Positions 17,082 through 54,839 of a stretch of 64,000 bases of DNA are shown piece by piece. The position numbers were made by a program, and so were the translations under genes. Below the pieces are notes generated by a model. It ran no database searches, had not been told where the DNA came from, and saw nothing but the letters and a program-made list of their open reading frames with translations. Numbering within the stretch: the stretch's first letter is position 1; every line of letters begins with the position of its first letter. Origin of the DNA: Candidatus Omnitrophota bacterium. GTDB lineage: Bacteria > Omnitrophota > Omnitrophia > Omnitrophales > Aquincolibacteriaceae. Location: the NCBI GenBank assembly GCA_003140935.1, contig PLLJ01000023.1, positions 24,824-88,823 on the forward strand, read 5' to 3'.

Positions 17082-17105
17082 TCTTTTCCCTGACTATTTT
17101 CCACC
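17082..17105 (-). promoter_or_regulatory. Recurring 26-bp motif, minus-strand copy, about 90 nt upstream of REC 16597-16992
   Basis: Reverse complement reads GGTGGAAAATAGTCAGGGAAAAGA and matches the consensus GGAAAAAAGTCRGAAAAAWGAGGA. Confidence 0.4.
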
Positions 17106-17195
17106 CAGAATCCCGATGTTCCCCGGCGCTTTTGACTACAGATCGTCCCGCATTCGCGATGCCTCTTCTCATATCGTGGAGCTTCTTGGAAAAGC

Positions 17196-17222
17196 GGGGA
17201 AAAGTCAGAAAAAAGAGGAATG
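17196..17222 (+). promoter_or_regulatory. Recurring 26-bp motif, copy 1, about 70 nt upstream of the small Cys-rich ORF at 17290
   Basis: GGGGAAAAGTCAGAAAAAAGAGGAATG. Confidence 0.45.
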
Positions 17223-17289
17223 CCCCGATAGCGCGCAATATTTTCATTGATTAAACTATCGTAGGTCTAGAAAGGTGGGAGAATCGGAT

Positions 17290-17472
17290 ATGGCAAAATT
17301 AGTAAGACGAGTCAACCAAAAGCGCGGTTATCAATGCTCTATTTGCGGAGAGAAGAAGGATAGCTTTTATGTATGTTGTGGTCATCCCATGATAGACCTT
17401 AAGACAAACTGGGATCTTCTGGATTGGGATATCCTGGATTGGAAAAAAAAGGCGTCACTTAAGAAGGGCTGA
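17290..17472 (+). CDS. Small basic Cys-rich protein (60 aa) with C-x2-C-x8-CCG motif; hypothetical
   Basis: GGTGGGA RBS 8 nt upstream. MAKLVRRVNQKRGYQCSICGEKKDSFYVCCGHPM... Paralogous to the 48-aa ORF at 31884. Confidence 0.4.
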   Translation: MAKLVRRVNQKRGYQCSICGEKKDSFYVCCGHPMIDLKTNWDLLDWDILDWKKKASLKKG

Positions 17473-17596
17473 TCCCGACAAATTCCGCGGGGCGTTGCGT
17501 CAAGCGAAGGGGATTCCCTTAAAAAAAAGAGGGCAGTATGAGGCTACAGGATGCGGCCAACGCTTTTGAAACTTGGGTGAGAAAAGAAGGTGAAAA

Positions 17597-17947
17597 GTGA
17601 TAGCCGAATTCTCAGTTTTCCAGATGAATGAATGCACGCCGATCAGCCGCACGATAACGGACGCCGCGAAGCTCGCTGAAGCTTCCGGACTGCCGTACCG
17701 TTTGACGCCGTCGACGATCTCCGTCAAAGGGGAATGGGACGAATTGTTCCTTTTGATCCGGAAGTGCCACGAGCGCGTCCGAGCACTAACGCCTCATGTG
17801 ATGACAACGATCTCGATTGAAGATGAGGACGGTCTCATGGACAAGATCGAAGATGGCAGCCGTGCCATTGAGGAGAAAATTACGAATCCTGCGACAGGGT
17901 GGAAGCCCAAAATACGCAATATAAAACCATCCAAAAACCAGATCTAA
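17597..17947 (+). CDS. MTH1187/YkoF-family (DUF77/UPF0045) small protein
   Basis: GTG start with AAGAAGG RBS. VIAEFSVFQM...GLPYRLTPSTISVKGEWDELFLLIRKCHE matches the MTH1187/YkoF fold signature. Confidence 0.7.
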   Translation: MIAEFSVFQMNECTPISRTITDAAKLAEASGLPYRLTPSTISVKGEWDELFLLIRKCHERVRALTPHVMTTISIEDEDGLMDKIEDGSRAIEEKITNPATGWKPKIRNIKPSKNQI

Positions 17948-18028
17948 GAATAGCAAAAACGTATTCACGCAGGTTATGGCCATAGAAAGAAAGCAGATCG
18001 CTTTAGGCATTTGCCGGGATTAAAAAAT

Positions 18029-19327
18029 ATGAAAATAGGGATCATCGGTTCAGGATATGTCGGGCTTGTGACGGGGGCCTGTTTGGCACATTTGGGGCAT
18101 AAGGTCATTTGCGTGGATCAGGATAAGGCCAAGATCCGGACTCTCAAGAATGGAAAAGTGCCCTTTTACGAACCGGGTCTTCTGGAAATGGTACTCGAAA
18201 ATGTATCTGCCAAAAGGCTCTCATTTACCACCGAGATATCCAAAGCCGTGAACCACTACGAAGTGCTTTTTGTATGCGTCAACACGCCGCCCAAGCCTCA
18301 GGGGGACTGTGACCTGAGTTTTGTGGGAAAGGTCACGAAACAGATCGCGACGCATCTACGAAGCTATTGTCTGGTTGTTGATAAAAGCACCGTTCCGGTC
18401 GAGACCGGAGCGTGGGTGCGTCAAACGATCCTCCGCCATGTCAAGAAAGGCGTCTCTTTCGATGTGGCTTCGAACCCCGAATTCTTAAGGGAGGGGTCTG
18501 CGATCCATGATTTCCTGCATCCGGACCGCATCGTGATCGGTGTTTCAAGCACACGCGCGGAAAAAATATTCAGGACACTTTACGACCCGCTCAAGGCCCC
18601 TATGATCGTCACAGACATCGAAAGCGCGGAACTGATCAAGCACGCGGCGAATTCTTTTTTGGCGACCAAGATCTCGTTCGCGAACGCGGTTTCCAGGATC
18701 TGTGATGCCGTGGGCGCGGATATCGAAAAGGTCACCCTGGGCATGGGACTTGATCCCCGCATCGGCAAACAGTTCCTGAACGCGGGGATCGGTTTCGGCG
18801 GGTCGTGTTTTCCCAAGGACGTGAGAGGCTTCCTGCATATCTCCGAAAAGTTGGGTGTGCGCTTTGATCTTCTTGCGGACGTTCTTCGGATCAATGACGA
18901 GCAGGCAAAATACTTTGTGGAGAAGATCAAAAGCTCCATGAAGATCCTTCGCGGCAAAACGATCGGAGTGTTGGGGCTGGCCTTCAAATCGGATACGGAT
19001 GATATGCGTTCGGCGCCCTCCATCCCCATCATTCAGATGCTTCAAAAAGAGGGGGTCTCTCTCCAGGCGTACGACCCTCAAGCTATGGACAAATCCCGGA
19101 AGATCTTTAACGGGGTGGAATTTGCAGAGGATCCCTTCGGGGCGGTCAAGGGAGCCCACGCGGTCGCCGTGCTTACGGAGTGGAGAGAATTCCTGAATCT
19201 CGATTGGGCGCGCGTCAAAAGGTCCATGAAAGACCGCTTCTTTTTCGATGGACGCAATCTATTCCAGCCGGCGGAGATGGTGAAGCTCGGATTTAAGTAT
19301 TTCAGCGTCGGCCGGCCCTCAGTCTGA
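18029..19327 (+). CDS. ugd: UDP-glucose 6-dehydrogenase (nucleotide-sugar dehydrogenase)
   Basis: MKIGIIGSGYVGLVTGACLA...GGSCFPKDV... is colinear with Ugd/UDPGDH. Confidence 0.85.
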   Translation: MKIGIIGSGYVGLVTGACLAHLGHKVICVDQDKAKIRTLKNGKVPFYEPGLLEMVLENVSAKRLSFTTEISKAVNHYEVLFVCVNTPPKPQGDCDLSFVGKVTKQIATHLRSYCLVVDKSTVPVETGAWVRQTILRHVKKGVSFDVASNPEFLREGSAIHDFLHPDRIVIGVSSTRAEKIFRTLYDPLKAPMIVTDIESAELIKHAANSFLATKISFANAVSRICDAVGADIEKVTLGMGLDPRIGKQFLNAGIGFGGSCFPKDVRGFLHISEKLGVRFDLLADVLRINDEQAKYFVEKIKSSMKILRGKTIGVLGLAFKSDTDDMRSAPSIPIIQMLQKEGVSLQAYDPQAMDKSRKIFNGVEFAEDPFGAVKGAHAVAVLTEWREFLNLDWARVKRSMKDRFFFDGRNLFQPAEMVKLGFKYFSVGRPSV

Positions 19328-19368
19328 GGGAAGACCTGCCTTCGCAGAGATCGCGGCGGTCCTGTTTT

Positions 19369-19770
19369 TTATTTGCGTGCTTCAGGCACAGAGAGCGGGC
19401 GTATTTTTTTCTGATTAAAAGCAAGGACCTTTAAGACCATATAAAAACCGAGAATGCCGACAGTATCAATGAAAATGTCCCGAATGGACCCGCTTCTTCC
19501 CTGGACGAACGACTGATGAAATTCATCCGATGCGGCATAGAAAAAAGAGAAAACGGCAGGATAGACAAAAAGATGAAAAACGTTCGTCACAAACGAACCT
19601 TTAAAGGCCCTGTACAGGAGGAAAGTAAGAATGAAATATTCGAAGACGTGAGCTATTTTCCTTAAGATCAGATCGCATTCAAGATTTGTTTTCAGGTTCG
19701 GAATACTTGAAAGCCAAAAAATGAAGCCCGCCCAAATTAAAACCAGAAACCATAGTTTAAAAATTTTCAC
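19369..19770 (-). CDS. VanZ-like membrane protein
   Basis: Four TM segments. LILRKIAHVFEYFILTFLLYRAF and DEFHQSFVQGRSGSIRD... motifs typical of the VanZ family. Confidence 0.65.
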   Translation of the reverse strand: MKIFKLWFLVLIWAGFIFWLSSIPNLKTNLECDLILRKIAHVFEYFILTFLLYRAFKGSFVTNVFHLFVYPAVFSFFYAASDEFHQSFVQGRSGSIRDIFIDTVGILGFYMVLKVLAFNQKKIRPLSVPEARK

Positions 19771-19890
19771 TCTGTCGATCCTTTCATTCTAATGAAACGG
19801 CATTGTACTCTGGGTGCCCCGTCGACTCAATAGGGTAGGTTGTCATGATAGGTGCTGACTCCAGGGCGATCTGACGCTGAAAAAATAAAA

Positions 19891-19918
19891 GGAGAAAAAA
19901 GTCGGAACAAAGTGGATG
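19891..19918 (+). promoter_or_regulatory. Recurring 26-bp motif, copy 2, about 105 nt upstream of hsp20
   Basis: GGAGAAAAAAGTCGGAACAAAGTGGATG. Confidence 0.4.
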
Positions 19919-20021
19919 TTGACCATTCATCACTTCCCGGCAATTCCATTAGAATGATCCCGCGATAAAAAAGGCCGTATTGGAAGAAGATTTCACTCAA
20001 TCAGGTGAAGGAGAAAACAAA

Positions 20022-21128: not shown

Positions 21129-21803
21129 ATGAGAGTTCTTGTGATCGAAGATGAGAAAAGGATGGCGGGCTTCATCGAGCGTGGGCTGAAAGAGGCGCAT
21201 TATGCCGTGGACCTGGCTTATGACGGGGAGCAGGGCATTCATCTGGCGGAGAACAACCCCTACGATCTGATCGTCCTCGACGTGGTCCTGCCTTATGAGA
21301 GCGGTTTTTTTGTTTGCGAGCATTTGAGGGACAAAGGGATCCAAACGCCCGTCCTTCTATTGACGGCCAAGAACGCGGTCAGAGATAAGGTGCGGGGGCT
21401 CGATGCCGGAGCGGACGATTACCTGACGAAACCGTTCGCTTTTGAAGAATTCATGGCACGGGTCCGAGCCTTGACGCGAAAAAACAGCCCTTCCAAGAAC
21501 AACATCCTCAAATTGGCCGACCTTGAGCTGGACCGCGTCACGCACAAAGTGTCCCGCGCGGGGCGGGAGATCACTCTGGCGAACAAGGAGTACGCTCTTC
21601 TGGAATACCTCATGCTCAATGCGGGCCATGTCATGACACGGACCATGATCTCCGAGCATGTGTGGAATGAGAGCTTTGACACCCTGACGAACGTCTTCGA
21701 TGTTTATATCCATCGTCTTCGCGGCAAGATCGACGAAGGATCCTCCAAGCCGCTGATTCACTCCGTGCGTGGCGTCGGCTATGTTCTGAAAGAGGACGCA
21801 TGA
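21129..21803 (+). CDS. OmpR-family response regulator (REC + winged-helix)
   Basis: MRVLVIEDEKRMAGFIERGL...LDVVLP...LTAKNAVRDKVRGLDAGADDYLTKPF...VRGVGYVL. Confidence 0.9.
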   Translation: MRVLVIEDEKRMAGFIERGLKEAHYAVDLAYDGEQGIHLAENNPYDLIVLDVVLPYESGFFVCEHLRDKGIQTPVLLLTAKNAVRDKVRGLDAGADDYLTKPFAFEEFMARVRALTRKNSPSKNNILKLADLELDRVTHKVSRAGREITLANKEYALLEYLMLNAGHVMTRTMISEHVWNESFDTLTNVFDVYIHRLRGKIDEGSSKPLIHSVRGVGYVLKEDA

Positions 21804-23880: not shown

Positions 23881-23908
23881 GTAGAAAAAAGTCAAAAAAA
23901 AGGGGAAG
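23881..23908 (+). promoter_or_regulatory. Recurring 26-bp motif, copy 3, about 360 nt upstream of the AraC-type response regulator, with an inverted half-site at 23917-23933
   Basis: GTAGAAAAAAGTCAAAAAAAAGGGGAAG, then GCTGACTTTTTTCCACC, which is the reverse complement of GGTGGAAAAAAGTCAGC. Confidence 0.4.
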
Positions 23909-24268
23909 CCTGTCATGCTGACTTTTTTCCACCTTTGCTATTATTTGCGGTGTCATCAGGCCTGAGACCGGAAAACGAGTAGCTTACAAAAGCGTTCACA
24001 GCTCACGAAAGGCACAGATGGAAAAATTGACTTATTTCCATCATCGATCTATATTATTTATACGGCTTTTTGCGATTCAAACCCCGCTTTTAATGGTGTA
24101 TTTAAAATAGATCGAAACCATGCTGACAAGCCCTCGTAGACGATTTGAAACTGCAAGCACGTCTTATCCCCGCTGTGCGTTATTCCGGATACGGTTCTCC
24201 ATCCAAAGTAAAATGTGTTCTGTGTTTGCTGAACATTTTTCCGATCACATTAAAAGAGAGGTGCTTCA

Positions 24269-25038
24269 TGCCTGAAACTATATTACTCGTCGACGATGAC
24301 AAGGAATTCAGAGAGGAATTCAGGGAGTTCCTCTCGGGCTATCAGATCCGTGAGGCGGCCAACGGCCGGGAGGCCCTGGATATTTTGCATAAGGCCCATG
24401 ACATCGATCTCATGATCCTGGATGTCAACATGCCGCAATTGGGCGGGATCGAAGTCCTGAAGGAAATAAAAAGAACGGATCCCAATGTGGGGATCATCAT
24501 TCTGACAGGCTACAGCGACAAGGACACCGCGATCGAAGCCCTCAAAGGACACGCGGACGATTATCTCGAAAAGCCCGTGGATCCCGAAAAGATGCGGACC
24601 CTGATCGAGAAACACCTTGAAAAAAAGCACGCGGGGAGCGATATCGATACTTCGAATACGCAGGGAAAGATCGAGAAGGTGAAACGCTTTCTCGAGAGGA
24701 ATTGTTTCAAAAAGGCGGGTCTGACGGAAGCGGCGCGGGCCGTGTGCCTGAGCCCCAAATATCTGAGCCGGATCTTCAAGGAAGAAACGGGGGAGAGCTA
24801 CGTCGGATATCGGCTCAAGATCAAGATCGAAAAAGCCAAAGAGCTTTTAACGCAAGGCGGCGGCAATGTCAGCCAGATCGCCTACAAGCTCGGCTATGAA
24901 AATCCGGAATCCCTGATCCGTCAGTTCAAGAAATTCACGCACAAGACGCCGGCGAAATTCCGTCAGAGCATTGCGAAACAAATTCCCGCGGGCGGGAAAA
25001 TCAGTCGGAAGGAAAAAACCGGGAAAAGAGCGGAATAA
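24269..25038 (+). CDS. Response regulator with AraC-type HTH output (REC + HTH_AraC)
   Basis: AGAGAGG RBS. MPETILLVDDDKEFREEF...LMILDVNMPQLGG; C-terminal VSQIAYKLGYENPESLIRQFKKFTHKTPAKFR. Confidence 0.85.
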
Positions 25039-25041
25039 CTC

Positions 25042-25665
25042 ATGAACCCAGAGACTCGCAGAAAGATCGCAAAGATTCTGGCGCTCGCCGTGAGCCTTGC
25101 CGGCATCCTGGTGATCCTCGGCTGGATCTTCAATATCGGTTTCTTGAAAAGTCTCTCTTCGGCCTGGATCTCCATGAAATTCAATACGGCCTTTGTCTTT
25201 GTCTTGAGCGGCCTGATCCTTTATTTTATTGTCCAGACCGGGGAAGGCAAACCCGATGTGGCCCAAGTCGTTCTCCCCATTGCCTCGCTCGTGATCCTGC
25301 TTTTGATGGGGACCTTGTTCTTTGGTAACCTTTTGGGTGTCCAAACAGGAGCGGAAGAACTGTTTATGCGGGACCTGAGCTCTGCTCCCACGACGGTCAC
25401 TCCCGGCATGCCGTCGTTACCGACGATGTTCAATTTTATATTGATCGCAAGCGCCGCTATTTTGACCCTTTTTAACCCCGAAAAATTATCAGCCATGCTG
25501 AAAAACATCGGACTTATCGTCGGGTGGGTCGGGGTCGTAGCGGTTCTCGGCTATCTGATAAATATTCCGCTTCTTTATTATTTCATCGCAGGTGTCAACA
25601 ACGCGATGGCCTGTCATACCGCGATCCTGTTCATGCTCCTGGGAGCCGGATTTTTATGTCTCTAA
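25042..25665 (+). CDS. Polytopic membrane protein (5-6 TM); possible sensory or accessory module of the downstream kinase
   Basis: Hydrophobic throughout. Its 3' end overlaps the start of the histidine kinase by 10 nt. Confidence 0.5.
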   Translation: MNPETRRKIAKILALAVSLAGILVILGWIFNIGFLKSLSSAWISMKFNTAFVFVLSGLILYFIVQTGEGKPDVAQVVLPIASLVILLLMGTLFFGNLLGVQTGAEELFMRDLSSAPTTVTPGMPSLPTMFNFILIASAAILTLFNPEKLSAMLKNIGLIVGWVGVVAVLGYLINIPLLYYFIAGVNNAMACHTAILFMLLGAGFLCL

Positions 25666-28274
25666 AAGCAAAACTCATCATTCTGTTTCTGGCGATTGCT
25701 TTGATCCCTTTGGTTTTCGTAAGCGCCTTGACCGTCCATAACTATCAAAATTCCATAGAAACGGCCCACCTGTCGGACCTTCAGCATATCGCCCTATTTA
25801 AAGCCGATAAAATAGAAGCCCATTTTGTCGATTTGAAAAAAAATCTCGAAGTTATCCGGAACATCTATGCGGTCAAAAAAAATCTTCCCATTCTGGACCG
25901 GCTTGTTCATGACCCGACCGATCCCAACTTTGTCGCGGCACAAAAGATGCTCAATGAAATATTCCCGAAAGCGACAAACGTTTGGAACCTGTTCGACATC
26001 ATGCTGCTTGGTCCTCAAGGGAACATCGTTTATTCAAGTAAGCCCGGTTATCACCCGGAGGTTTTTCCGAAAGGATTGCCGGCTCGTTATCAAGAAGCTT
26101 TTGAGAATGGGAAAAAAGGGATCTATTTTTCAGAGGTATTTCCTAACGAGAAAGAAAAGGACAAGACGACGATCTTGGCAACAGCCCCTGTGTCTGATCT
26201 TCACGGTCTTCCCGCGGGAGTGATTGTTTTCGAAGTAAATATGGAGCCCTTTTTCAAACTTATTCAAGATGTTACAGGTCTTGGCAAGACCGGCGAGACC
26301 TTGATCGGAAAAAAAGAGGGAGATAAAGTAGTATTTCTGAATCCCCTCAGGCATGACCCTGAAGCAGCTTTTAAACGCTATACAACTATCGGCAGTGTTG
26401 TGGGAGAGGCGTTACAACATGCGGTACAAGGCCAAAACGGATTCGGCTATACCATTGATTACCGCGGTAAACCGGTGGTAGCGGCTTGGCGGTACCTTCC
26501 ATTGTTAAGGTGGGGGGTTGTGGCCAAGATCGATCGCGAGGAGGCCTTTGCGGAGATCATCCATTTAAGACATGTCGTGATCATCTTAATTGTCATTATT
26601 TCCGCTTTGGCTGGCATCACGGCGTTTTCCATAGCTCAGTCCATTTCCGGGCCTATCCAAAAGCTCTCAAAAGGCGCGGAGATCATTGGGAAAGGGAACC
26701 TGGATTATAAAGTCGGAACCTCTCTCAAGGATGAAATCGGGCAGCTTTCAAGGGCATTCGACAAAATGACCGCTGAGCAAAAGCAGGCCCAAGATTCTTT
26801 GCGCCAAACCTCGTTTTATGCCAGGAGTCTTCTCGAAGCATCTTTGGATCCTCTGGTCACGATCTCGGCCTACGGCAAGATCACGGATGTTAACGAAGCT
26901 ACGATCAAGGCGACCGGCTTGTCCCGGGGAGATCTTGTCGGCACCGATTTTTCCGATTACTTCACAGAACCGGTTAAAGCCAAGGCGGGCTATCAAGAAG
27001 TCTTTTCGAAAGGATTTGTCACAGACTACCCGCTGACGATACGCCATAAGGACGGACATTCAACGGATGTTCTCTACAATGCCAGTGTTTATAAAGATAC
27101 TCACGGTAATGTCCTGGGAGTTTTCGCCGCGGCGCGCGACATAACTTTATTGAAACAAACTTCTCAATACGCCCGAAGCTTGATCGAATCTTCCCTTGAT
27201 CCCTTGGTCACGATCTCCGCCGACGGAAAAATTACGGACGTCAATGAAGCGGCTATCAAGGCGACCGGTCTGTCCCGGGGAGATCTTGTCGGAACAGATT
27301 TTTCCAATTACTTTACGAAGCCTGAAAAAGCCAAGGCAGGCTATCAAGAAGTCTTTTCGAAAGGATTTGTCACAGACTACCCGCTGACGATACGCCGCAA
27401 GGACGGACATTTAACGGATGTTCTCTATAACGCCAATATCTATAAAGATACTCGCGGTAATGTCCTGGGAGTTTTCGCCGCAGCACGTGATGTGACAGAA
27501 CTGAAAAAAGCAGAAGCGGAACTAAGGCGTCATCGCGACAGCCTCGAAGTTCTGGTGGCGGAGCGAACCGCCGATCTTCAAACAGCAAATCAAGAGCTCG
27601 CAAGTTCCAACGAAAATCTGGAGCAATTCGCCTACGTCGCGTCCCATGACCTTCAGGAACCCTTGCGGGTCATGTCCAATTTTTCGCAATTGTTGGAAAA
27701 ACGTTATAAGGATAAGCTGGATCAAGACGCGAATGAATTTATCGAGTTTATCGTGGATGCGGCAAAACGCATGCAGAAACTGATCACGGACCTTCTCGCT
27801 TATTCGCGGATAGGCAAAAAAGACATTGCCGAGACCGAAGAAGATCTCAACAAGATGGTTCAAAAAATACTGGACGGCATGGCGGCGACTCTGGAATCAA
27901 GCGGCGGTACGGTGACTTATGATACACTTCCAGCGTTGAGGGTCCACGCAACGAGTATAATGCAGGTTTTTCAGAATTTGATCGGCAACGCGTTGAAATT
28001 CCACGAGAAACTACCCCCCCGAGTCCATATCAGCGCAAGAAAAGACGGAGAGGAGTGGATCTTTTCCGTGCGGGATAATGGTCTGGGGATCGAACCGCAA
28101 TACCACGAGCGGATCTTCCAGATCTTCCAGCGCCTGCATTCCAAGGAAGAATATTCCGGCACCGGCATCGGTCTCTCCATCTGCAAAAAAATAGTGACGA
28201 ATTACGGAGGACGGATCTGGGTCGAATCCGAACACGGCAAAGGCTCGACTTTTTATTTCACAATCCCCACATAA
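25656..28274 (+). CDS. Sensor histidine kinase: TM, Cache-like periplasmic domain, HAMP, two PAS domains, HisKA, HATPase
   Basis: ATG at 25656 (MSLKAKLIILFLAIALIPLVF). H-box FAYVASHDLQEPLRVMSNFSQLL. G-boxes RDNGLGIEPQYHERIFQ, GTGIGLSICKKIV. The track ORF 25524 includes an upstream extension. Confidence 0.88.
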   Translation: MSLKAKLIILFLAIALIPLVFVSALTVHNYQNSIETAHLSDLQHIALFKADKIEAHFVDLKKNLEVIRNIYAVKKNLPILDRLVHDPTDPNFVAAQKMLNEIFPKATNVWNLFDIMLLGPQGNIVYSSKPGYHPEVFPKGLPARYQEAFENGKKGIYFSEVFPNEKEKDKTTILATAPVSDLHGLPAGVIVFEVNMEPFFKLIQDVTGLGKTGETLIGKKEGDKVVFLNPLRHDPEAAFKRYTTIGSVVGEALQHAVQGQNGFGYTIDYRGKPVVAAWRYLPLLRWGVVAKIDREEAFAEIIHLRHVVIILIVIISALAGITAFSIAQSISGPIQKLSKGAEIIGKGNLDYKVGTSLKDEIGQLSRAFDKMTAEQKQAQDSLRQTSFYARSLLEASLDPLVTISAYGKITDVNEATIKATGLSRGDLVGTDFSDYFTEPVKAKAGYQEVFSKGFVTDYPLTIRHKDGHSTDVLYNASVYKDTHGNVLGVFAAARDITLLKQTSQYARSLIESSLDPLVTISADGKITDVNEAAIKATGLSRGDLVGTDFSNYFTKPEKAKAGYQEVFSKGFVTDYPLTIRRKDGHLTDVLYNANIYKDTRGNVLGVFAAARDVTELKKAEAELRRHRDSLEVLVAERTADLQTANQELASSNENLEQFAYVASHDLQEPLRVMSNFSQLLEKRYKDKLDQDANEFIEFIVDAAKRMQKLITDLLAYSRIGKKDIAETEEDLNKMVQKILDGMAATLESSGGTVTYDTLPALRVHATSIMQVFQNLIGNALKFHEKLPPRVHISARKDGEEWIFSVRDNGLGIEPQYHERIFQIFQRLHSKEEYSGTGIGLSICKKIVTNYGGRIWVESEHGKGSTFYFTIPT
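26806..27497 (+). repeat. Tandem direct duplication of a ~340-bp PAS-domain segment inside the kinase gene
   Basis: Unit 1 (about 26806-27140) and unit 2 (about 27159-27497) share 60-nt perfectly identical runs, for example ggctatcaagaagtcttttcgaaaggatttgtcacagactacccgctgacgatacgcc. Protein units are about 85% identical. Confidence 0.8.
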
Positions 28275-31787: not shown

Positions 31788-31817
31788 GTAGAAACAAGTC
31801 AAGAAAAAGGGGATACC
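31788..31817 (+). promoter_or_regulatory. Recurring 26-bp motif, copy 4, about 70 nt upstream of the small Cys-rich ORF at 31884
   Basis: GTAGAAACAAGTCAAGAAAAAGGGGATAC. Confidence 0.45.
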
Positions 31818-31883
31818 TTCTATTCTGTTTTTCTGATCTCACAGCTATGCTTCTCTCAGGCAGGTGAAAGCGAAGGAGATGCG

Positions 31884-32030
31884 ATGAAGAAAGGAAGGAA
31901 AGCGAAAAGATCAGCAAAAACTCTATACGGTTGCAAGTACTGTGAATATGAGTCGGCCGCAAAAGAAATATGCTGCGGAGAAACGATACGGCCAAACCAT
32001 AAAACAGATAACGAAAGGGGGCTGCCATGA
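31884..32030 (+). CDS. Small basic Cys-rich protein (48 aa) with C-x2-C-x9-CCG motif; hypothetical (below the ORF-track cutoff)
   Basis: AAGGAGA RBS 5 nt upstream. MKKGRKAKRSAKTLYGCKYCEYESAAKEICCGETIRPNHKTDNERGLP. Its stop overlaps the next ATG (ATGA). Paralog of the 17290 product. Confidence 0.4.
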   Translation: MKKGRKAKRSAKTLYGCKYCEYESAAKEICCGETIRPNHKTDNERGLP

Positions 32031-32224
32031 GCGCTTGGCGTGATACCTACGAAGATATGACTTATTTTCCAAGGGTTCTCCGGAGGATCCGGCATCAAAA
32101 TAATATGATGACCATCCAGCATCTTCTGGAAGAGGCGTTTGATGGAAACCAACGCCTCCGTGAGTTTTGGAATGAGGTCGAAAAAGAGAACGGCGAGCGG
32201 TCGCAGGAATGGGAGGGTGAATGA
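32027..32224 (+). CDS. Small acidic hypothetical protein (65 aa), translationally coupled on both sides
   Basis: AAGGGGG RBS. ATGA overlaps with both the upstream small ORF and the downstream REC gene. Confidence 0.4.
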   Translation: MSAWRDTYEDMTYFPRVLRRIRHQNNMMTIQHLLEEAFDGNQRLREFWNEVEKENGERSQEWEGE

Positions 32225-32631
32225 ACGCCGATCCGGTGAATTCGGGTGGTCCCGTTGAAAATGCAATGACGGTGCTGGCCGTTGATGATGACGAGATCTT
32301 TTTGGAGGAACTGAGCGATGTGCTTGCGTCAAGCGGCTACGAAGTGGTCACGATAACCGACCCTCGAAAGGCTGTGGATGCGGCACTCGAAGCCAGGCCG
32401 GCGGTGATCCTTATGGATATGAAGATGCCCGGCAAAAGCGGGCTCGAGATCGCGCATGAAATGCGGTACCGGCCTGCCTTGGCCCATGTTCCGATCATTG
32501 CCATGAGCGGTTTTTTAAAAGAAAGCAACCTGCCCTTCATGGAAACATGTGGGATCAAAAAATGCCTTAAAAAACCGTTCAATCCTCTGGATATTATTTG
32601 GGAGATCGAAGAAGTATTGAAGAAGGAATGA
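32221..32631 (+). CDS. Stand-alone REC-domain response regulator, paralog family 1
   Basis: VLAVDDDEIFLEELSDVLASSGYEV...VILMDMKMPGKSGLEIAHEMR...IIAMSGFLKE...KKPF. Confidence 0.85.
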   Translation: MNADPVNSGGPVENAMTVLAVDDDEIFLEELSDVLASSGYEVVTITDPRKAVDAALEARPAVILMDMKMPGKSGLEIAHEMRYRPALAHVPIIAMSGFLKESNLPFMETCGIKKCLKKPFNPLDIIWEIEEVLKKE

Positions 32632-33151: not shown

Positions 33152-33595
33152 ATGGAAGAAGTGAAATCAAAACTCGCTGTGATGATGAATAAAGCTTTAG
33201 AACTGGAACATGCCGCGAGGATCCAGTATCTCACGCATGCAGAGCTGATTCAGGGGCTGAATGCGGAGCCGATCCGGGATCGCCTTAAAGAGATCGCATC
33301 CGATGAAGCGAAGCATGAAGAGAAATTCCGCACCCTCATCAGCGATTATCTCGGCGGCGTTCCGTGCATGGGGCTCGCTCTTACGCATCCCGGGAAGGAC
33401 ATCCCGGGAATCCTGAAGACGAACCTGGCGAACGAAAAGGAAGCAATCGATTTTTACAGGCAGATCTACCGTAAGGTGACGGAGTCGAAGGATTCCCTGC
33501 CGTACGAATTTGAAACGCTCGAGCACGAGGTCCGGCACATTATTATCGAGGAGCAGGAGCATGTGACCGAACTCGCATTGCTTTTGGCGGAGTGA
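33152..33595 (+). CDS. Ferritin-like or bacterioferritin-like protein
   Basis: AAAGGGGGAG RBS. ...NKALELEHAARIQYLTHAELI...EIASDEAKHEEKF...EKEAIDFYRQI has the four-helix di-iron ligand spacing (E..H / E..H). Confidence 0.6.
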   Translation: MEEVKSKLAVMMNKALELEHAARIQYLTHAELIQGLNAEPIRDRLKEIASDEAKHEEKFRTLISDYLGGVPCMGLALTHPGKDIPGILKTNLANEKEAIDFYRQIYRKVTESKDSLPYEFETLEHEVRHIIIEEQEHVTELALLLAE

Positions 33596-43006: not shown

Positions 43007-43036
43007 GATGGAAAAAAGTCGGAAAAAAGAGGAACC
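43007..43036 (+). promoter_or_regulatory. Recurring 26-bp motif, copy 5, about 85 nt upstream of REC 43120, followed by an inverted TTCCTTTTTTCC arm
   Basis: GATGGAAAAAAGTCGGAAAAAAGAGGAACC atcctat TTCCTTTTTTCC. Confidence 0.45.
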
Positions 43037-43119
43037 ATCCTATTTCCTTTTTTCCCTCTCCTATCATTATGTCCCTGTAATGAGGAGACCGGACGGGTAT
43101 CGTCTCCGAAGGAGGACCC

Positions 43120-43521
43120 ATGGATCCTAAAAAAGAGCGCATTACAGTGTTGGTCGTCGACAACGATAAAGATTTTTTGGCAGAAGTGAGCGAATCGTTG
43201 GATGGCAGCGGTTACACAGCGGTGGCCGTGAACGATCCGATGATTGCCTTGATGGAGATCGAGAGAGTGAAACCGGACGTCGTCCTTTTGGATCTTCAGA
43301 TGCCCGGGAAAAGCGGGTTGGAAATCGGCTATGAGATCAGAAGGAGACCGCAGTTTGCACGTACGCCCATTCTGGCGCTCAGCGGTATTTTTCCGGGCTC
43401 GGATATTCCCTTGCCGGAAGTGTGGGGTGTCAAACATTGTCTCAACAAACCTTTTCACCCCTCAGAATTGATCTGCGCGATCGAAAAGATTTTGGCGAAG
43501 CAAACGGCTCTGATCAACTAA
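43120..43521 (+). CDS. Stand-alone REC-domain response regulator, paralog family 1
   Basis: GAAGGAGGA RBS. VLVVDNDKDFLAEVSESLDGSGYTAV...VVLLDLQMPGKSGLEIGYEIR...ILALSGIFPG...NKPF. Confidence 0.85.
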   Translation: MDPKKERITVLVVDNDKDFLAEVSESLDGSGYTAVAVNDPMIALMEIERVKPDVVLLDLQMPGKSGLEIGYEIRRRPQFARTPILALSGIFPGSDIPLPEVWGVKHCLNKPFHPSELICAIEKILAKQTALIN

Positions 43522-47564: not shown

Positions 47565-47593
47565 ATGGAAAAAAGTCAGTAAAAAGGACATCT
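47565..47593 (+). promoter_or_regulatory. Recurring 26-bp motif, copy 6, about 120 nt upstream of the Cys-rich ORF at 47715
   Basis: TATGGAAAAAAGTCAGTAAAAAGGACATC. Confidence 0.4.
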
Positions 47594-47714
47594 GAGACAT
47601 GGACGCTTTTTGAGGTGAGAATTAGATTGAGGGGTGCATCGTTATGTCACAAAAGCTATTTTCTGGGTTCACAAACATTGACTGAATTCAGAAAAAAATA
47701 AGAGGAGGTCGGTC

Positions 47715-48050
47715 ATGGAAGGCAAATGTTCTCAAGATGCACACGGTCAGGAAACTTGCCGTGTGGAAGCACGCCCGCAGGAGACTTGCGCCAGTAAGTG
47801 CGAATGCGGTTGTCCCATCGAGAAGGCGACGGAAATGTGGAGTTGCGCCTTCTGCGAAGCCAAGAGGCAAGCTGCCGTTGAGATCCTAAAAGGCAAGATC
47901 CAAAAGGCTTGGGGCTCCAAAATGGAGAAAGTAGCGGATGCGGTCCTTGCCGCGAAGGATGCCGAATGGAAAGCGATGCTCGCCAAAGGTAAAGCCAAAA
48001 TGGACCTTAAAGATCAGATGCTCAAGATCCTGGCGAAGAGCGAGAAATAG
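47715..48050 (+). CDS. Cys-rich hypothetical protein (CECGCP / CAFCE motifs), Lys/Ala-rich C-terminus
   Basis: AAGAGGAGG RBS. MEGKCSQDAHGQETCRVEARPQETCASKCECGCPIEKATEMWSCAFCEAK... Confidence 0.55.
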   Translation: MEGKCSQDAHGQETCRVEARPQETCASKCECGCPIEKATEMWSCAFCEAKRQAAVEILKGKIQKAWGSKMEKVADAVLAAKDAEWKAMLAKGKAKMDLKDQMLKILAKSEK

Positions 48051-51652: not shown

Positions 51653-51668
51653 AAAGACGGAGGGACCT

Positions 51669-52019: not shown

Positions 52020-52028
52020 GGAGGGAGT

Positions 52029-53534
52029 GTGGATGCGTACTTCGGGGATTTCCGTTTCGGAAATCTGATCTTTCAACGTTGTCTTGCCGCAGTCTATCTT
52101 ATCGCTTTCATTTCGGCACTGAACCAGTTTCCAGCGCTGCTTGGAGAGAAGGGATTCTTACCGGTCTCTGATTTCATCCGGAGAGTTCCTTTTGAAGACA
52201 CCCCCAGTTTATTTTATCTGGGCTATTCGGACCGGCTGTTCACCTATGTTGCATGGATCGGGATCATCCTTTCTTCGCTTATTTTTTTGGGATTGTTTGA
52301 ACGAGTACCCTGGTGGTTACTGACCGCGGCATGGCTCGTTCTTTGGTTTCTTTATCTCTCCATTGTCAATGTGGGACAAATCTTTTACGCCTTCGGCTGG
52401 GAGTCGATGCTGCTCGAGGCGGGATTCTTCGCGGCCTTTCTTGGGCCTGCCACACAGAATCCGTCCTTGATCCCGGTGTTGGCCGTACGTTGGATGCTTT
52501 TTCGGCTGATACTCGGAGCGGGTCTGATCAAGCTGCGGAACGATCCGTGCTGGCGTGACCTCACATGTCTTTTCTACCATTACGAGACCCAGCCGATCCC
52601 GAATCCTTTGAGCTGGTATTTCCATCATCTTCCGAAGATCCCGCTGATGATCGGCGTTTTTTTTAATCACTTTGTCGAGGTGGCCGCACCTTTCGGACTT
52701 CTCGGTCCTCAGTGGGTCGCCGCAGCCGCCGGCATGATCATTATTTCTCACCAGCTCGTGCTGATCGTGGGAGGGAACTACGCCTGGCTGAACATGTTAA
52801 CGATCGTTCTCGGGATCACTGCGTTCAGCGATGGAGTGATCGGCCGGCTCCTTCCGGGTCCCGCGATCTCCATGCCCGCAGTCCAACCTCGCCCGGAAAG
52901 CTACCATACGATCCTGATGATGCTTGCCCTTGTCACAGTCGTTTTAAGCGTTCGCCCGGCACTGAACCTTTGTTCCCGGGAACAGCGCATGAACTATAGC
53001 TACAATCCCATCCATCTGATCAATGATTACGGTGTTTTCGGGACCATCACCAAGGAACGCTATGAGATCGTGATCGAGGGGACCGGTGACGCGACACTTA
53101 CGCCGAAAACAAAATGGAAAGAATATGAATTCAAAGGCAAACCGGGGGATGTGCGGCGAATGCCACCCCAAATAGCGCCGTACCACTTGCGGCTGGATTG
53201 GCTCATGTGGTTCCTTCCTTTTTCCGTAGAAGTAACGGAAAACGGTATCCTGATGGCGGGGCATGAGCTCTGGTTCCTACGATTCATGGAGAAATTGCTT
53301 GAAGCGGACCGGAAGACGCTTAAACTCTTAAGAACGGATCCGTTCTCAGGGAAACCGCCTCATTATTTGCGGGCGAGATATTACCTGTACCAGTTCACGA
53401 ACTGGAAAGAAAAAAAAGCGACCGGGGCCTGGTGGAAAAGAAAACTGATCGATGAATATCTGCCGCCGGTAACGCTGGCCGGCTTAAGGAAAGCTCTCGA
53501 CTTTCCCGAAAAACCGTACAAAGAGGGAGTTTAA
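52029..53534 (+). CDS. Lipase-maturation-factor (LMF/HTTM-like) family polytopic membrane protein
   Basis: GTG start. Multi-TM N-terminal half with a conserved C-terminal region. Family assignment is from memory of LMF-type topology and motifs. Confidence 0.5.
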   Translation: MDAYFGDFRFGNLIFQRCLAAVYLIAFISALNQFPALLGEKGFLPVSDFIRRVPFEDTPSLFYLGYSDRLFTYVAWIGIILSSLIFLGLFERVPWWLLTAAWLVLWFLYLSIVNVGQIFYAFGWESMLLEAGFFAAFLGPATQNPSLIPVLAVRWMLFRLILGAGLIKLRNDPCWRDLTCLFYHYETQPIPNPLSWYFHHLPKIPLMIGVFFNHFVEVAAPFGLLGPQWVAAAAGMIIISHQLVLIVGGNYAWLNMLTIVLGITAFSDGVIGRLLPGPAISMPAVQPRPESYHTILMMLALVTVVLSVRPALNLCSREQRMNYSYNPIHLINDYGVFGTITKERYEIVIEGTGDATLTPKTKWKEYEFKGKPGDVRRMPPQIAPYHLRLDWLMWFLPFSVEVTENGILMAGHELWFLRFMEKLLEADRKTLKLLRTDPFSGKPPHYLRARYYLYQFTNWKEKKATGAWWKRKLIDEYLPPVTLAGLRKALDFPEKPYKEGV

Positions 53535-53535
53535 C

Positions 53536-53919
53536 ATGGCTGTGAGCTTCAGGGTCTATCCTACGATGCTTTTTGACGGGGACTGCGGCTTCTGCCGGTA
53601 CTGGATCGAGCAATGGCAGCGAATTACCCGGGATAAGGTCCAGTACCGCTCTTTCCAGGAGGCCCTGATTCAATTTCCGCATTTGACGGAAAAAGAATGC
53701 ATGGAGTCCGTTCGCCTCATCCTGCCTGACGGTTCGATCTCCTCCGGAGCGCGTGCAGTCTTCAAGGCTTTCGCCATCGCTGACCGCTTTGTCTGGCTTC
53801 TGAAGTGTTACGATTGTGTGCCGCTTTTTGGCCGTGTCGCAGAATGGGGCTACAGACTTGTTGCCGCCCACCGCATCTTTCTTTCAAAATCTCATAACTC
53901 AGTTCAATGCCGGAAGTGA
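53536..53919 (+). CDS. Thiol-disulfide oxidoreductase, DCC (DUF393) family
   Basis: MLFDGDCGFCRYWIEQWQR... matches the DCC signature. Starts 2 nt after the LMF stop. Confidence 0.75.
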   Translation: MAVSFRVYPTMLFDGDCGFCRYWIEQWQRITRDKVQYRSFQEALIQFPHLTEKECMESVRLILPDGSISSGARAVFKAFAIADRFVWLLKCYDCVPLFGRVAEWGYRLVAAHRIFLSKSHNSVQCRK

Positions 53920-54014
53920 CGGCAGTCCGTCTATCCTTGCCTTGGATTATTTTCTCAAATGGTTGGCAAGGATTGCCCCAATTCCAACTCCGTTGAAATT
54001 GATAGGTATTGGGA

Positions 54015-54770
54015 CTAGGCTTGCTCTGCGCGCATCATCAGAACCGTAATGTTGTCCAGTCCGCCCGAACGATTGGCTTCGGCGACAAGCTTTTCGCAAG
54101 CCTCCCGGAGGTCTTCCTGTTGCAGAAGGATCTCTTGAATCAGGGTATCGCTGAGCATGTCATGCAGTCCATCGCTGCATAAGAGGACGCGGTCGCCGGG
54201 TTCGATCGAAAGAACAGCGATCGCCGGCGAGATCTTTGGACCATGTCCCAGGCATTGTGTCAGCTGGAACCGTCCCGGATGCCCCCGCTGTTCATTTTCC
54301 GATACAAGACCACTCTCAAGTAATTCCTGAAAAACGGAATGGTCTTTGGTCAAGCGGCAAAGCTTGCCGTCACGGAAAAGATACGCCCGGCTGTCACCCA
54401 CATGAGCGATCAGGATACGGTCGTTACGGACCAGACACAGAACCACGGTTGTTCCCATTCCTTTTTGCTCCGGATGCGCCATTCCAGTTTCATGGATCTG
54501 TCGATTGACCGTCTCTAACAAGTCCGCGACGGTTCTCGAGGCTTCCGGGTTTTCCAGGGATCTGAGGCTAGGGTGTTTCTCCCGGAAGAATCGAGGGAGT
54601 AACGTGACGGCCACGCCTGCAGCGATTTCGCCGGCGGCATGACCGCCCATTCCGTCCGCGACAAGATAAAGCCCTTCCGCTGAGTCCGCATTCCAGGCGT
54701 CCTCGTTGTTGAGCCTTGTGCGCCCCAAGTCCGATAGCCCATAGTGTTCAAAGCGACTTATATCTGACAT
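54015..54770 (-). CDS. PP2C-family Ser/Thr protein phosphatase (Stp1-like)
   Basis: ...LYLVADGMGGHAAGEIAAGVAV...LCSDGLHDMLSD...GGLDNITVLMM. Confidence 0.85.
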   Translation of the reverse strand: MSDISRFEHYGLSDLGRTRLNNEDAWNADSAEGLYLVADGMGGHAAGEIAAGVAVTLLPRFFREKHPSLRSLENPEASRTVADLLETVNRQIHETGMAHPEQKGMGTTVVLCLVRNDRILIAHVGDSRAYLFRDGKLCRLTKDHSVFQELLESGLVSENEQRGHPGRFQLTQCLGHGPKISPAIAVLSIEPGDRVLLCSDGLHDMLSDTLIQEILLQQEDLREACEKLVAEANRSGGLDNITVLMMRAEQA

Positions 54771-54810
54771 GCGACCATTTTAACGTACTTTCCGTGGAAA
54801 ATGTATCTGA

Positions 54811-54839
54811 GGGGGAAAAAAGTCAGAAAAATGAGGATG
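54811..54839 (+). promoter_or_regulatory. Recurring 26-bp motif, copy 7, about 110 nt upstream of the ORF at 54951
   Basis: GGGGGAAAAAAGTCAGAAAAATGAGGATG. Confidence 0.45.

What the first reader, a model, noticed from the sequence alone, without database searches (positions are those of the whole stretch)
17082..54839. Recurring 26-bp intergenic element GGAAAAAAGTCRGAAAAAWGAGGA (at least 8 oriented copies): candidate promoter of an undescribed stress or alternative-sigma regulon
The same element sits 70-120 nt (once about 360 nt) upstream of start codons and is always oriented toward the downstream gene.

Copies:
- 17196 GGGGAAAAGTCAGAAAAAAGAGGAATG
- 19891 GGAGAAAAAAGTCGGAACAAAGTGGATG
- 23881 GTAGAAAAAAGTCAAAAAAAAGGGGAAG
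- 31788 GTAGAAACAAGTCAAGAAAAAGGGGATA
- 43007 GATGGAAAAAAGTCGGAAAAAAGAGGAAC
- 47565 TATGGAAAAAAGTCAGTAAAAAGGACATC
- 54811 GGGGGAAAAAAGTCAGAAAAATGAGGATG
- minus strand, 17105-17082: GGTGGAAAATAGTCAGGGAAAAGA, pointing at the divergent REC gene 16992

Genes it precedes: two paralogous tiny Cys-rich proteins (17290, 31884), a third Cys-rich protein (47715), orphan REC regulators (16992, 43120), the AraC-type response regulator operon, hsp20, and a secreted repeat protein.

Operons it heads continue into ferritin-like, DJ-1, ALDH, ADH, FAD and SDR oxidoreductase genes, which is a general-stress-like gene set.

The 3' half (GAGGAAT, GGGGATA, GAGGATG) resembles the GGGWAW -10 box of SigB/SigF-type group-3 sigma factors. 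Two PP2C phosphatases of the RsbU/SpoIIE type are encoded nearby (54015-54770, 62482-63858).

The 12-bp periodic direct repeat GAAAAAAG-N4-GAAAAAAG would alternatively fit an OmpR/PhoB-type response-regulator box. Several copies are followed 15-25 nt downstream by the complementary TTTTTTCC arm (23917-23933, 43044-43055), so an RNA hairpin in the 5' UTR is a third reading.
Basis: partly seen in the sequence, partly recalled or inferred. Interest (0 to 1): 0.85.

Follow-up and report, generated by a model that had tools for sequence, protein, structure and literature searches.

The report
Response-regulator operator upstream of stress promoters
The repeated A-rich element is real, but it is not an alternative-sigma promoter: it is a 27-41 bp activator site fixed just upstream of ordinary sigma-70-type promoters, most likely bound by the receiver+AraC response regulator encoded beside it, and it marks an undescribed, redox-stress-like regulon shared by uncultured Omnitrophota and MAGs whose submitters assign them to several other candidate phyla.

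Summary
There are exactly eight copies (35-45 bits; next best 16, shuffle maximum 17.7). All are intergenic and point at a gene.

Every copy lies at a fixed distance upstream of a sigma-70-type promoter. The -35 hexamer starts 26 nt after the A of AGTC, and a -10 follows after 16-18 nt. The element therefore spans about -70 to -44, plus a C-N-ATT patch abutting the -35. The window's -35 boxes are weak (2.6 of 6).

A strict pattern scan of 185,579 species genomes found 46 loci. Most are Omnitrophota and other candidate-phylum MAGs with the same layout. The window's REC+AraC response regulator (24268-25038) has 51-61% identical orthologues in about a quarter of them.

In the converse test, 80 metagenome loci were fetched through that regulator alone. 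They hold 54 motif hits (0 expected), 53 on the regulator's strand. Density falls about 20-fold beyond 6 kb.

Downstream genes are mainly single-domain receivers. Others include the regulator itself, superoxide reductase, ferritin-like, desulforedoxin-like, DUF1540-like and Hsp20 genes.

Verdict: the operator of an uncharacterised AraC-type two-component activator. It is a new member of a known kind.

The parts
17194..17257 (+). Copy 1. Core 17194-17220 (GCGGGGAAAAGTCAGAAAAAAGAGGAA), -35 position 17229-17234 (TAGCGC), -10 17252-17257 (TAAACT). Drives the 60-aa CxxC...CCG protein at 17290-17472.
17041..17104 (-). Copy 2, divergent from copy 1. Core 17104-17078 (GTGGAAAATAGTCAGGGAAAAGACGAA), -35 17069-17064, -10 17046-17041 (CATACT). 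Drives the REC-only gene 16992-16597 and probably the HisKA_3 kinase 16523-15060.
   Evidence: conserved in L132 and L133
19891..19955 (+). Copy 3. Core 19891-19917, -35 19926-19931 (TTCATC), -10 19950-19955 (TAGAAT). Drives hsp20 (start 20022, ends 20477).
23881..23944 (+). Copy 4. Core 23881-23907 (GTAGAAAAAAGTCAAAAAAAAGGGGAA), -35 23916-23921, -10 23939-23944 (TATTAT). This is the upstream promoter of the REC+AraC regulator operon. An inverted half-site lies at 23915-23933 on the minus strand.
24268..25038 (+). REC + AraC-type HTH response regulator, 256 aa. Proposed binder of the element.
   Evidence: Pfam Response_reg + HTH_18. Gene call. Orthologues next to the motif in other phyla.
25042..28274 (+). 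207-aa membrane protein followed by a dCache-HAMP-PAS-PAS histidine kinase, in the regulator's operon. Probable cognate sensor. The kinase ORF as listed starts at 25524; the public gene call is 872 aa.
31788..31851 (+). Copy 5. Core 31788-31814, -35 31823-31828, -10 31846-31851 (TATGCT). Heads a long run of same-strand genes: 48-aa CxxC...CCG protein (31884-32030), a 65-aa ORF, a REC-only gene (32221-32631), a ferritin-like gene (33152-33595), DJ-1/PfpI, an aldehyde dehydrogenase and a kinase.
   Evidence: the L132 orthologous promoter keeps the motif
43008..43070 (+). Copy 6. Core 43008-43034 (ATGGAAAAAAGTCGGAAAAAAGAGGAA), -35 43043-43048, -10 43065-43070 (CATTAT). Drives the REC-only gene 43120-43521, followed by a Zn alcohol dehydrogenase.
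47565..47628 (+). Copy 7. Core 47565-47591, -35 47600-47605, -10 47623-47628 (TAGATT). Drives the 111-aa Cys-rich protein 47715-48050, followed by a pyridine-nucleotide-disulphide oxidoreductase and a short-chain dehydrogenase.
54812..54874 (+). Copy 8. Core 54812-54838 (GGGGAAAAAAGTCAGAAAAATGAGGAT), -35 54847-54852 (TTTACC), -10 54869-54874 (TAGAAT). Drives the 186-aa protein 54951-55511, which has a signal-peptide-like N-terminus.

Best explanation
The element is the operator of the receiver+AraC-type response regulator encoded at 24268-25038.

Proposed mechanism: a sensor kinase phosphorylates the regulator. The kinase is probably the dCache-HAMP-PAS kinase in the same operon. The regulator then binds, most likely as a head-to-tail dimer, to about 41 bp spanning roughly -70 to -30. 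This span is the 27-bp core GTRGAAAAAAGTCARNAAAAAGNGGAA plus a C-N-ATT patch that abuts the -35. From there it recruits the housekeeping sigma-70-type RNA polymerase to promoters whose own -35 hexamers are poor.

Its main targets are single-domain receiver proteins, which probably act as a phosphate sink or feedback branch. Other targets are its own operon and small redox or oxidative-stress-type proteins: desulforedoxin-like and other Cys-rich proteins, ferritin-like, DJ-1/PfpI and Hsp20 here, and superoxide reductase, hemerythrin-like and DUF1540-like proteins in other lineages.

What is shown:
- the fixed promoter geometry;
- the two-way genomic linkage between motif and regulator;
- the strand and intergenic bias;
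- conservation of the motif at orthologous promoters.

What is inferred: physical binding, activation rather than repression, dimer stoichiometry, and the nature of the signal.
For: 1. Geometry. In 111 unique sites from the window and 126 other loci, the -35 hexamer (TTkAC) starts exactly 26 nt after the A of AGTC. ATT at +25 to +27 is present in 81-93% of sites. A -10 (at least 4 of 6, with A2 and T6) follows at 16-18 nt in 87% of sites, against 7-22% at shifted offsets. These positions lie outside the matrix used to find the sites.
2. The window's -35 hexamers match TTGACA at only 2.6 of 6 on average. A consensus promoter scan misses these promoters. Both fit dependence on an activator.
3. 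Motif to regulator. A strict motif scan of 596 Gb of species genomes gave 46 loci. Full-length orthologues of the regulator (51-61% identity) lie within the 8-kb loci in 9 cases, plus 2 cut by a locus end. No GerE or OmpR output domain or PP2C domain was found in them.
4. Regulator to motif. The 80 loci (719 kb) fetched by the regulator protein alone contain 54 hits of at least 22 bits in 42 loci, against 0 in shuffles. 53 of the 54 are on the regulator's strand, and 26 of 35 loci of at least 8 kb carry one.
   - Density is 1.2-1.4 per 10 kb within 4 kb of the gene and 0.06 per 10 kb at 6-10 kb.
   - Strict-pattern density is about 1e5 times that of the genome collection.
   - Only 6 of 54 hits lie in ORF calls of at least 100 aa, although 87% of the bases do (P about 8e-36).
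5. Both HTH recognition helices are invariant in 31 orthologues: S162, K164, Y165, L166, S167 and F170; Y210, N212, E214, S215, R218 and F220. This matches the nearly invariant operator. The output domain aligns with the AraC, YesN and MarA DNA-binding domains.
6. Self-similarity of the element peaks at a 21-bp offset. That is the spacing reported for predicted sites of the receiver+AraC hybrid regulators of Bacteroides (PMC3878776).
7. Footprint. The related contig L132 (regulator 80% identical) keeps the motif and promoter at four orthologous promoters while the flanks diverge.
Against: - No binding, transcription-start or expression data exist. The assignment rests on association.
- 9 of 35 long regulator loci have no hit of at least 22 bits.
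- In the syntenic Omnitrophota MAG L133 only one copy was found, upstream of the REC-only gene. It faces away from the regulator gene, which has no copy of its own.
- The 21-bp self-similarity is modest (0.45), and the two halves are not clean repeats. A monomer site plus a separate -35-proximal feature is therefore possible.
- Loci fetched through the regulator are biased toward containing it. Only the motif-first set is unbiased, and there the regulator is seen in about a quarter to a third of the loci.
- The stress or redox signal is inferred from gene content only.
Confidence: 0.75

Rival explanations
1. The element is bound by another, unidentified transcription factor or RNA-polymerase accessory protein that travels with the same gene neighbourhood. 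The AraC-type regulator is then only a frequent neighbour or target.
For: The regulator is seen in only about a quarter to a third of motif-selected 8-kb loci. Some regulator loci lack the motif. Several MAGs carry the motif on contigs other than the regulator's.
Against: No other DNA-binding family recurs in motif-selected loci. The top families are REC-only, the AraC regulator, superoxide reductase and ferritin-like. GerE and OmpR output domains are absent. Motif density decays steeply with distance from the regulator gene. Motif copies on other contigs are what a trans-acting regulon would show.
Confidence: 0.12
2. The element is an UP-element-like or intrinsically bent A-tract module. It is read by the RNA polymerase alpha C-terminal domain and is not a regulator-specific site.
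For: It lies at about -70 to -44. It has two A5-6 tracts phased about 11 bp apart, and AAAAAAG resembles UP-element subsites (own knowledge).
Against: Non-A positions are nearly invariant: G at -6, G-T-C at +1 to +3, G at +12 and G at +15, each in 94-100% of 111 sites. UP elements do not show this. The element is concentrated within 4 kb of one regulator family and is extremely rare in 596 Gb of genomes.
Confidence: 0.05
3. One reading: the element itself is the -35/-10 of an alternative sigma factor of the SigB/SigF or ECF type, controlled by the nearby PP2C phosphatases.
For: GGGGAAT / GAGGAAT resembles a GGGWAW -10 box. Two PP2C/SpoIIE genes lie in the window. The gene set looks like a general stress response.
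Against: A sigma-70-type -35 and -10 follow at fixed spacing in 87% of sites. GTC to GGAAT is about 10 nt apart, not 12-15. No sigma or anti-sigma domain was found in the window genes that were scanned. No PP2C domain recurs in motif-selected loci. The PP2C genes have no motif.
Confidence: 0.03
4. The element is an RNA hairpin in the 5' UTR, formed between the A-tract and a downstream T-tract.
For: Copies at 23890 and 43017 fold with z-scores of -3.5 and -2.4.
Against: The pairing region lies upstream of the predicted -10. The other six copies have z-scores from -1.6 to +1.0, and the eight structures differ. The T-run is absent from 87 of 103 sites elsewhere. Rfam finds no match.
Confidence: 0.02
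5. The element is a mobile or REP-like repeat scattered by transposition.
For: There are multiple near-identical short copies in one 38-kb stretch.
Against: Only about 30-40 bp are conserved, with no terminal inverted repeats or target duplications. Orientation toward genes is strict. Copies are retained at orthologous promoters. Position relative to the -35 and -10 is fixed.
Confidence: 0.01

Closest known systems
AraC/XylS-family activator sites (AraC I1-I2 at araBAD, XylS sites at Pm, the MarA/SoxS/Rob marbox)
   Same: The site is asymmetric and orientation-dependent, lies immediately upstream of or abutting the -35 of a sigma-70 promoter with a weak -35, and is read by a bipartite two-HTH domain. 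The window regulator's output domain aligns with the AraC and MarA DNA-binding domains. The element shows 21-bp self-similarity.
   Different: The sequence is unrelated to those sites as I recall them. The regulator is switched by a phospho-receiver domain rather than a ligand-binding domain. The operator is almost invariant across MAGs assigned to several phyla. Comparison with the named E. coli and Pseudomonas sites rests on my own knowledge and was not tested here.
Predicted operators of Bacteroides hybrid two-component systems (receiver + AraC output), PMC3878776
   Same: The output architecture is the same (CheY-like receiver followed by an AraC-type HTH). Those sites are direct repeats with an average 21-bp centre-to-centre distance, interpreted as dimers on one face of the DNA.
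   Different: Those are membrane-bound one-polypeptide systems restricted to Bacteroidetes that control polysaccharide use. This regulator is a soluble 240-260 aa protein in Omnitrophota and other candidate phyla, with redox or stress-type targets. The motif sequence is different.
YesN-type REC+AraC response regulators (for example B. subtilis YesN; PDB 3lsg, 6swi)
   Same: The domain order is the same and the output domains are recognisably similar (E 5e-10 to 3e-7). JGI annotates the window protein as YesN/AraC family.
   Different: No NCBIfam model reaches its cutoff. Identity to the solved domains is low. I found no published operator resembling this element.
OmpR/PhoB-type tandem boxes (pho box)
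   Same: A-rich direct repeats with about 11-bp phasing lie next to a weak -35, and regulation is by a two-component system.
   Different: No winged-helix output domain is linked to the motif in other genomes. The only OmpR-type regulator in the window (21129-21803) is not conserved with the motif.
SigB-type general stress promoters of Firmicutes
   Same: The downstream gene classes are similar (small heat-shock protein, ferritin/Dps-like, DJ-1/PfpI, aldehyde dehydrogenase, short-chain dehydrogenase). There is a GGGAAT-like hexamer.
   Different: The spacing does not fit. A canonical -35/-10 lies downstream. No sigma or Rsb module is present. The organism is related to Omnitrophota, not Firmicutes.

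Membership tests
AraC/XylS-type activator operator | A protein with an AraC-type two-HTH DNA-binding domain is genetically linked to the site | tested here: met
   Orthologues of the REC+AraC regulator lie within 8 kb of the motif in 9-11 of 46 motif-selected loci. Conversely there are 54 motif hits in 80 regulator-selected loci, against 0 expected.
AraC/XylS-type activator operator | An asymmetric site in fixed orientation, adjacent to or overlapping the -35 of a sigma-70 promoter | tested here: met
   The -35 starts at +26 from the A of AGTC in all classes of site. A -10 lies at 16-18 nt in 87% of sites.
AraC/XylS-type activator operator | Two direct-repeat half-sites about 21 bp apart (dimer binding) | tested here: inconclusive
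   Normalised self-similarity peaks at a 21-bp offset (0.45), but the halves share little beyond GnGGAA.
AraC/XylS-type activator operator | Demonstrated protein-DNA binding and activator-dependent transcription | not testable with these tools
   Needs EMSA, a footprint, DAP-seq or a reporter assay.
SigB/SigF-type (group 3) alternative-sigma promoter | -35 GTTTAA-like and -10 GGGTAT-like hexamers separated by 12-15 nt, with no other core promoter needed | tested here: not met
   GTC to GGAAT is about 10 nt apart. A sigma-70-type -35/-10 follows at fixed distance.
SigB/SigF-type (group 3) alternative-sigma promoter | A cognate sigma factor or partner-switching module co-occurs with the motif | tested here: not met
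   No sigma or anti-sigma domain was found in the window genes that were scanned. No PP2C domain occurs in motif-selected loci. The whole genome was not available.
OmpR/PhoB-type response-regulator box | A winged-helix (Trans_reg_C) regulator is linked to the tandem repeats | tested here: not met
   tblastn with the OmpR-type output domain of window 21129-21803 finds nothing in the 46 motif-selected loci.
UP element | A/T-rich -40 to -60 region without invariant G/C positions, present at strong promoters generally | tested here: not met
   G and C positions are 94-100% invariant. The motif is confined to the neighbourhood of one regulator family. rRNA or ribosomal-protein promoters of this organism were not available for comparison.
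Structured RNA / 5' UTR element | Transcribed, with a conserved secondary structure | tested here: not met
   It lies upstream of the -10. The eight copies have no common fold. Rfam finds no hit.
Mobile short repeat (REP/MITE-like) | Terminal inverted repeats or target duplications, with insertion independent of gene orientation | tested here: not met
   53 of 54 hits are on the regulator's strand. Hits are intergenic with P about 8e-36. Copies are retained at orthologous promoters.

The most novel reading that the evidence does not exclude
The regulator, its nearly invariant 27-41 bp operator and the single-domain receiver genes it drives form a self-contained signalling cassette. The cassette has been kept or exchanged across at least five candidate phyla (Omnitrophota, Elusimicrobiota, Ratteibacteria, Auribacterota/Aureabacteria, Planctomycetota-labelled MAGs). 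It serves there as the main oxygen or redox-stress regulon of these mostly anaerobic, uncultured bacteria. Its chief transcriptional output is more receiver proteins that re-route phosphorelay flux, rather than enzymes.
Probability: 0.3. Interest if true: 0.65.

Novelty: new member of a known kind. Interest (0 to 1): 0.5.

Why it matters
Almost nothing is known about transcriptional regulation in Omnitrophota and neighbouring candidate phyla, because they are essentially uncultured. This work pairs a sharply defined operator (about 40 bits, with predicted promoter geometry) with a named candidate regulator. That gives a regulon that can be scanned for in any MAG. It can also be tested heterologously, with regulator plus promoter-reporter in E. 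coli, without culturing the organism. The target set is superoxide reductase, ferritin-like, desulforedoxin-like, hemerythrin-like, DJ-1 and Hsp20 genes. It suggests how these anaerobes sense and answer oxygen or redox stress. The near-identity of a long operator across MAGs assigned to several phyla is unusual for two-component regulators. It points either to strong constraint or to horizontal spread of the cassette.

Tried and rejected
- Alternative-sigma promoter: rejected on spacing and on the downstream sigma-70 core promoter.
- OmpR-type or NarL/GerE-type regulator as the binder: their output domains do not recur near the motif.
- PP2C partner-switching link: no recurrence.
- RNA hairpin or riboswitch: folds are inconsistent, the T-arm is not conserved, and Rfam finds nothing in the window.
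- Mobile repeat: no supporting features.
- Literature search by sequence strings and by topic found nothing relevant.
- NCBIfam gave no family at cutoff for the regulator, the REC-only proteins or the small Cys-rich proteins.
- The strict genome scan did not recover the source genome itself. The window organism is known only from metagenome and MAG contigs.
- Several strict-pattern hits were false positives inside coding sequence, for example Ffh-like KKVKKMGKKG tails in L014, L033 and L040, and L012, L013 and L029.
- Weaker motif-like sites in the window (46789, 42349, 41270) score within shuffle noise and were not counted.
- I first took the organism for a Firmicute, from its strong Shine-Dalgarno sites and purine skew. 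Synteny with an Omnitrophota MAG corrected this.

Full report
**Observation**

Five match the 23-mer consensus within three mismatches, against none in 100 dinucleotide-preserving shuffles. A weight matrix built from the eight copies scores them at 35-45 bits. The next best site in the 64-kb window scores 16 bits, and the best site in shuffled sequence scores 17.7. There are therefore exactly eight copies, between 17078 and 54838.

All eight lie between genes and point at the next gene. The distance from the A of AGTC to the start codon is 87-141 nt for seven copies and 378 nt for the AraC-type regulator.

**Anatomy**

When the copies are aligned on AGTC, each is followed by nine variable bases, a poor -35-like hexamer, 16-18 bases and a good -10 (TAGAAT, TATTAT, TATGCT, CATTAT, TAGATT, TAAACT, CATACT).

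The same layout holds in 111 unique sites gathered from the window and 126 other loci:
- The consensus is GTRGAAAAAAGTCArnAAAAAGnGGAA, then N5, then C-n-ATTkac.
- The -35 hexamer starts 26 nt after the A of AGTC.
- A -10 (at least 4 of 6, with A2 and T6) lies at a 16-18 nt spacer in 87% of sites, against 7-22% when the frame is shifted.
- These downstream positions lie outside the matrix used to find the sites, so they are independent evidence.

The element therefore occupies roughly -70 to -44 of a housekeeping sigma-70-type promoter, with a further conserved patch touching the -35. The window's own -35 hexamers match TTGACA at only 2.6 of 6 positions on average. A consensus promoter scan does not detect these promoters. 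That is what activator-dependent promoters look like. Predicted starts leave 5' UTRs of about 26-80 nt with Shine-Dalgarno sites.

**What travels with the element**

*Motif first.* A strict pattern (GAAAAAAGTCRRNAAAAWGRGGA) was scanned against one genome for each of 185,579 species. It gave only 46 loci.
- About a dozen are coding or otherwise doubtful matches.
- The rest show the same motif, -35 and -10 layout.
- By record title they come from Omnitrophota (the largest group), Elusimicrobia, Ratteibacteria, Auribacterota, Schekmanbacteria, Planctomycetes/PVC and some MAGs labelled Clostridia.
- tblastn found 51-61% identical, full-length orthologues of the window's receiver+AraC-HTH regulator (24268-25038) inside nine of these 8-kb loci, and partial copies at the ends of two more.
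- tblastn also found orthologues of the window's single-domain receivers and of its dCache-HAMP-PAS kinase.
- The AraC-type output domain is the only DNA-binding output domain that recurs. GerE-type and OmpR-type output domains and PP2C give nothing.
- The most frequent gene families in these loci are REC-only, the regulator, superoxide reductase and ferritin-like.
- About 16 loci carry second or third weaker copies.

*Regulator first.* An alignment of 31 orthologues was used to fetch 80 metagenome loci (719 kb) through the protein alone.
- The matrix built only from the window's eight copies finds 54 hits of at least 22 bits in 42 loci, against 0 in shuffles.
- 53 of the 54 hits are on the regulator's strand, and 26 of 35 loci of at least 8 kb have one.
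- Hits sit typically 45-140 nt after the regulator's stop codon, or 2.3-3.6 kb downstream.
- Density is 1.2-1.4 per 10 kb within 4 kb of the gene and 0.06 per 10 kb at 6-10 kb. This within-contig control excludes a composition effect.
- Only 6 of 54 hits fall in ORF calls of at least 100 aa, although 87% of the bases do.
- Strict-pattern density near the regulator is about 1e5 times that of the genome collection.

**Phylogenetic footprint and taxon**

- The window's proteins are found only on metagenome and MAG contigs.
- The closest named relative of the regulator (69% identity) is from a Candidatus Omnitrophota MAG. Its contig (L133) is syntenic with the window.
- A closer relative (L132, regulator 80% identical) keeps the motif and promoter at four orthologous promoters: the REC-only gene, the tiny Cys-rich gene, the regulator and the long stress-gene run. 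The flanking intergenic DNA diverges.
- L133 keeps only the copy in front of the REC-only gene.

**Targets**

The most frequent first downstream gene is a 120-135 aa single-domain receiver with an IMVVDDDKEFLEEL-type N-terminus. It accounts for at least 26 of the 111 unique sites (26 of the 124 raw hits by family clustering; 26 of 111 by N-terminal pattern).

Other downstream genes include:
- the regulator itself (6 sites);
- DUF1540-like Cys-rich proteins;
- superoxide reductase;
- ferritin-like proteins;
- YHS-domain proteins;
- TusA-like proteins;
- lipoproteins;
- tiny Cys-rich peptides.

In the window the elements head genes for the following:
- two REC-only proteins directly, with a third (32221-32631) inside the run of genes headed by copy 5;
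- a 111-aa Cys-rich protein;
- Hsp20;
- the regulator operon;
- a 186-aa protein with a signal-peptide-like N-terminus;
- a long run of same-strand genes with ferritin-like, DJ-1/PfpI, aldehyde dehydrogenase and kinase genes.

The gene set suggests a redox or oxygen-stress response. This is an inference from content only.

**Mechanism**

The regulator's output domain is a canonical two-HTH AraC/MarA-type domain. Both recognition helices are invariant among 31 orthologues, which fits an almost invariant operator. The conserved DNA span (-9 to about +31, roughly 41 bp) is about twice the footprint of one such domain. Its self-similarity peaks at a 21-bp offset. The same spacing has been inferred for receiver+AraC hybrid regulators of Bacteroides (PMC3878776).

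I therefore propose that a phosphorylation-induced head-to-tail dimer binds from about -70 to the edge of the -35 and recruits the housekeeping holoenzyme. Induced REC-only proteins would then feed back on the phosphorelay. Binding, the sign of regulation, stoichiometry and the signal have not been shown.

**Rivals**

- A SigB-type or other alternative-sigma promoter is not supported, on spacing, on the downstream core promoter and on the absence of a linked sigma module.
- An OmpR/PhoB box is not supported, because no winged-helix regulator is linked to the motif.
- An UP element does not explain the invariant G and C positions or the confinement to one regulator's neighbourhood.
- An RNA hairpin is not supported.
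- A mobile repeat is not supported.
- An unidentified co-travelling factor cannot be excluded. It is the main residual rival.

**Novelty**

Neither sequence-string nor topic searches of the held literature found the element or this regulator subfamily. No NCBIfam model reaches its cutoff. In kind it is an ordinary two-component activator site. What is new is the operator, its assignment to a regulator, and the regulon in candidate phyla that have no genetics.

Noticed in passing
window 24027-24055: A near-consensus sigma-70 promoter (TTGACT-17-TATATT) lies about 210 nt upstream of the regulator's start codon and about 100 nt downstream of the motif-dependent promoter. It is a conserved block in the related contig L132. 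Its -35 plus T-run is the reverse complement of a distal half-site (ATGGAAATAAGTCAAT). The regulator gene may therefore have a basal promoter that the regulator itself can occupy.
   Followed up: partly
window 23915-23933 (minus strand): A perfect inverted distal half-site (GGTGGAAAAAAGTCAGC) sits between the -35 and -10 of the regulator's motif-dependent promoter and is conserved in L132. Among the 111 unique sites examined it occurs only here. Possibly an autorepression site.
   Followed up: partly
window 23951-24267: The leader between the predicted start of the motif-dependent promoter and the regulator's start codon is unusually long (about 317 nt). It has no called gene and no Rfam match.
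   Followed up: partly
window 17290-17472 and 31884-32030; L036 about 7410-7640: Tiny proteins with a CxxC...CCG pattern like desulforedoxin directly follow the motif. They have no curated family (the Pfam Desulfoferrod_N hit is below threshold).
   Followed up: partly
L017 about 6835-6950 (minus strand) and L037 about 3945-4070 (minus strand): 37-40 aa peptides with one transmembrane helix and a C-terminal CxH..YC..CK motif (MxWGLFGQIVLLII...) directly follow the motif in two different MAGs. This may be an unannotated small-protein family.
   Followed up: no
L014, L033, L040: The strict DNA pattern also matches coding sequence for a lysine-rich tail (KKVKKMGKKG, Ffh-like) in alphaproteobacterial MAGs. 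These are false positives for the element.
   Followed up: yes
L002/L028, L023/L038, L004/L020, L019/L041, L008/L046: In five MAGs the motif occurs on two different contigs. For example a TusA/DsrE-like operon lies on one contig and the regulator cluster on another. The regulon is therefore dispersed, not only local to the regulator.
   Followed up: partly
window 14198-63858: The region is unusually dense in signalling genes: at least six histidine kinases, eight receiver-containing proteins, a REC-GGDEF-EAL protein (57147-58796) and two PP2C/SpoIIE phosphatases. Only part of this set is under the motif.
   Followed up: partly
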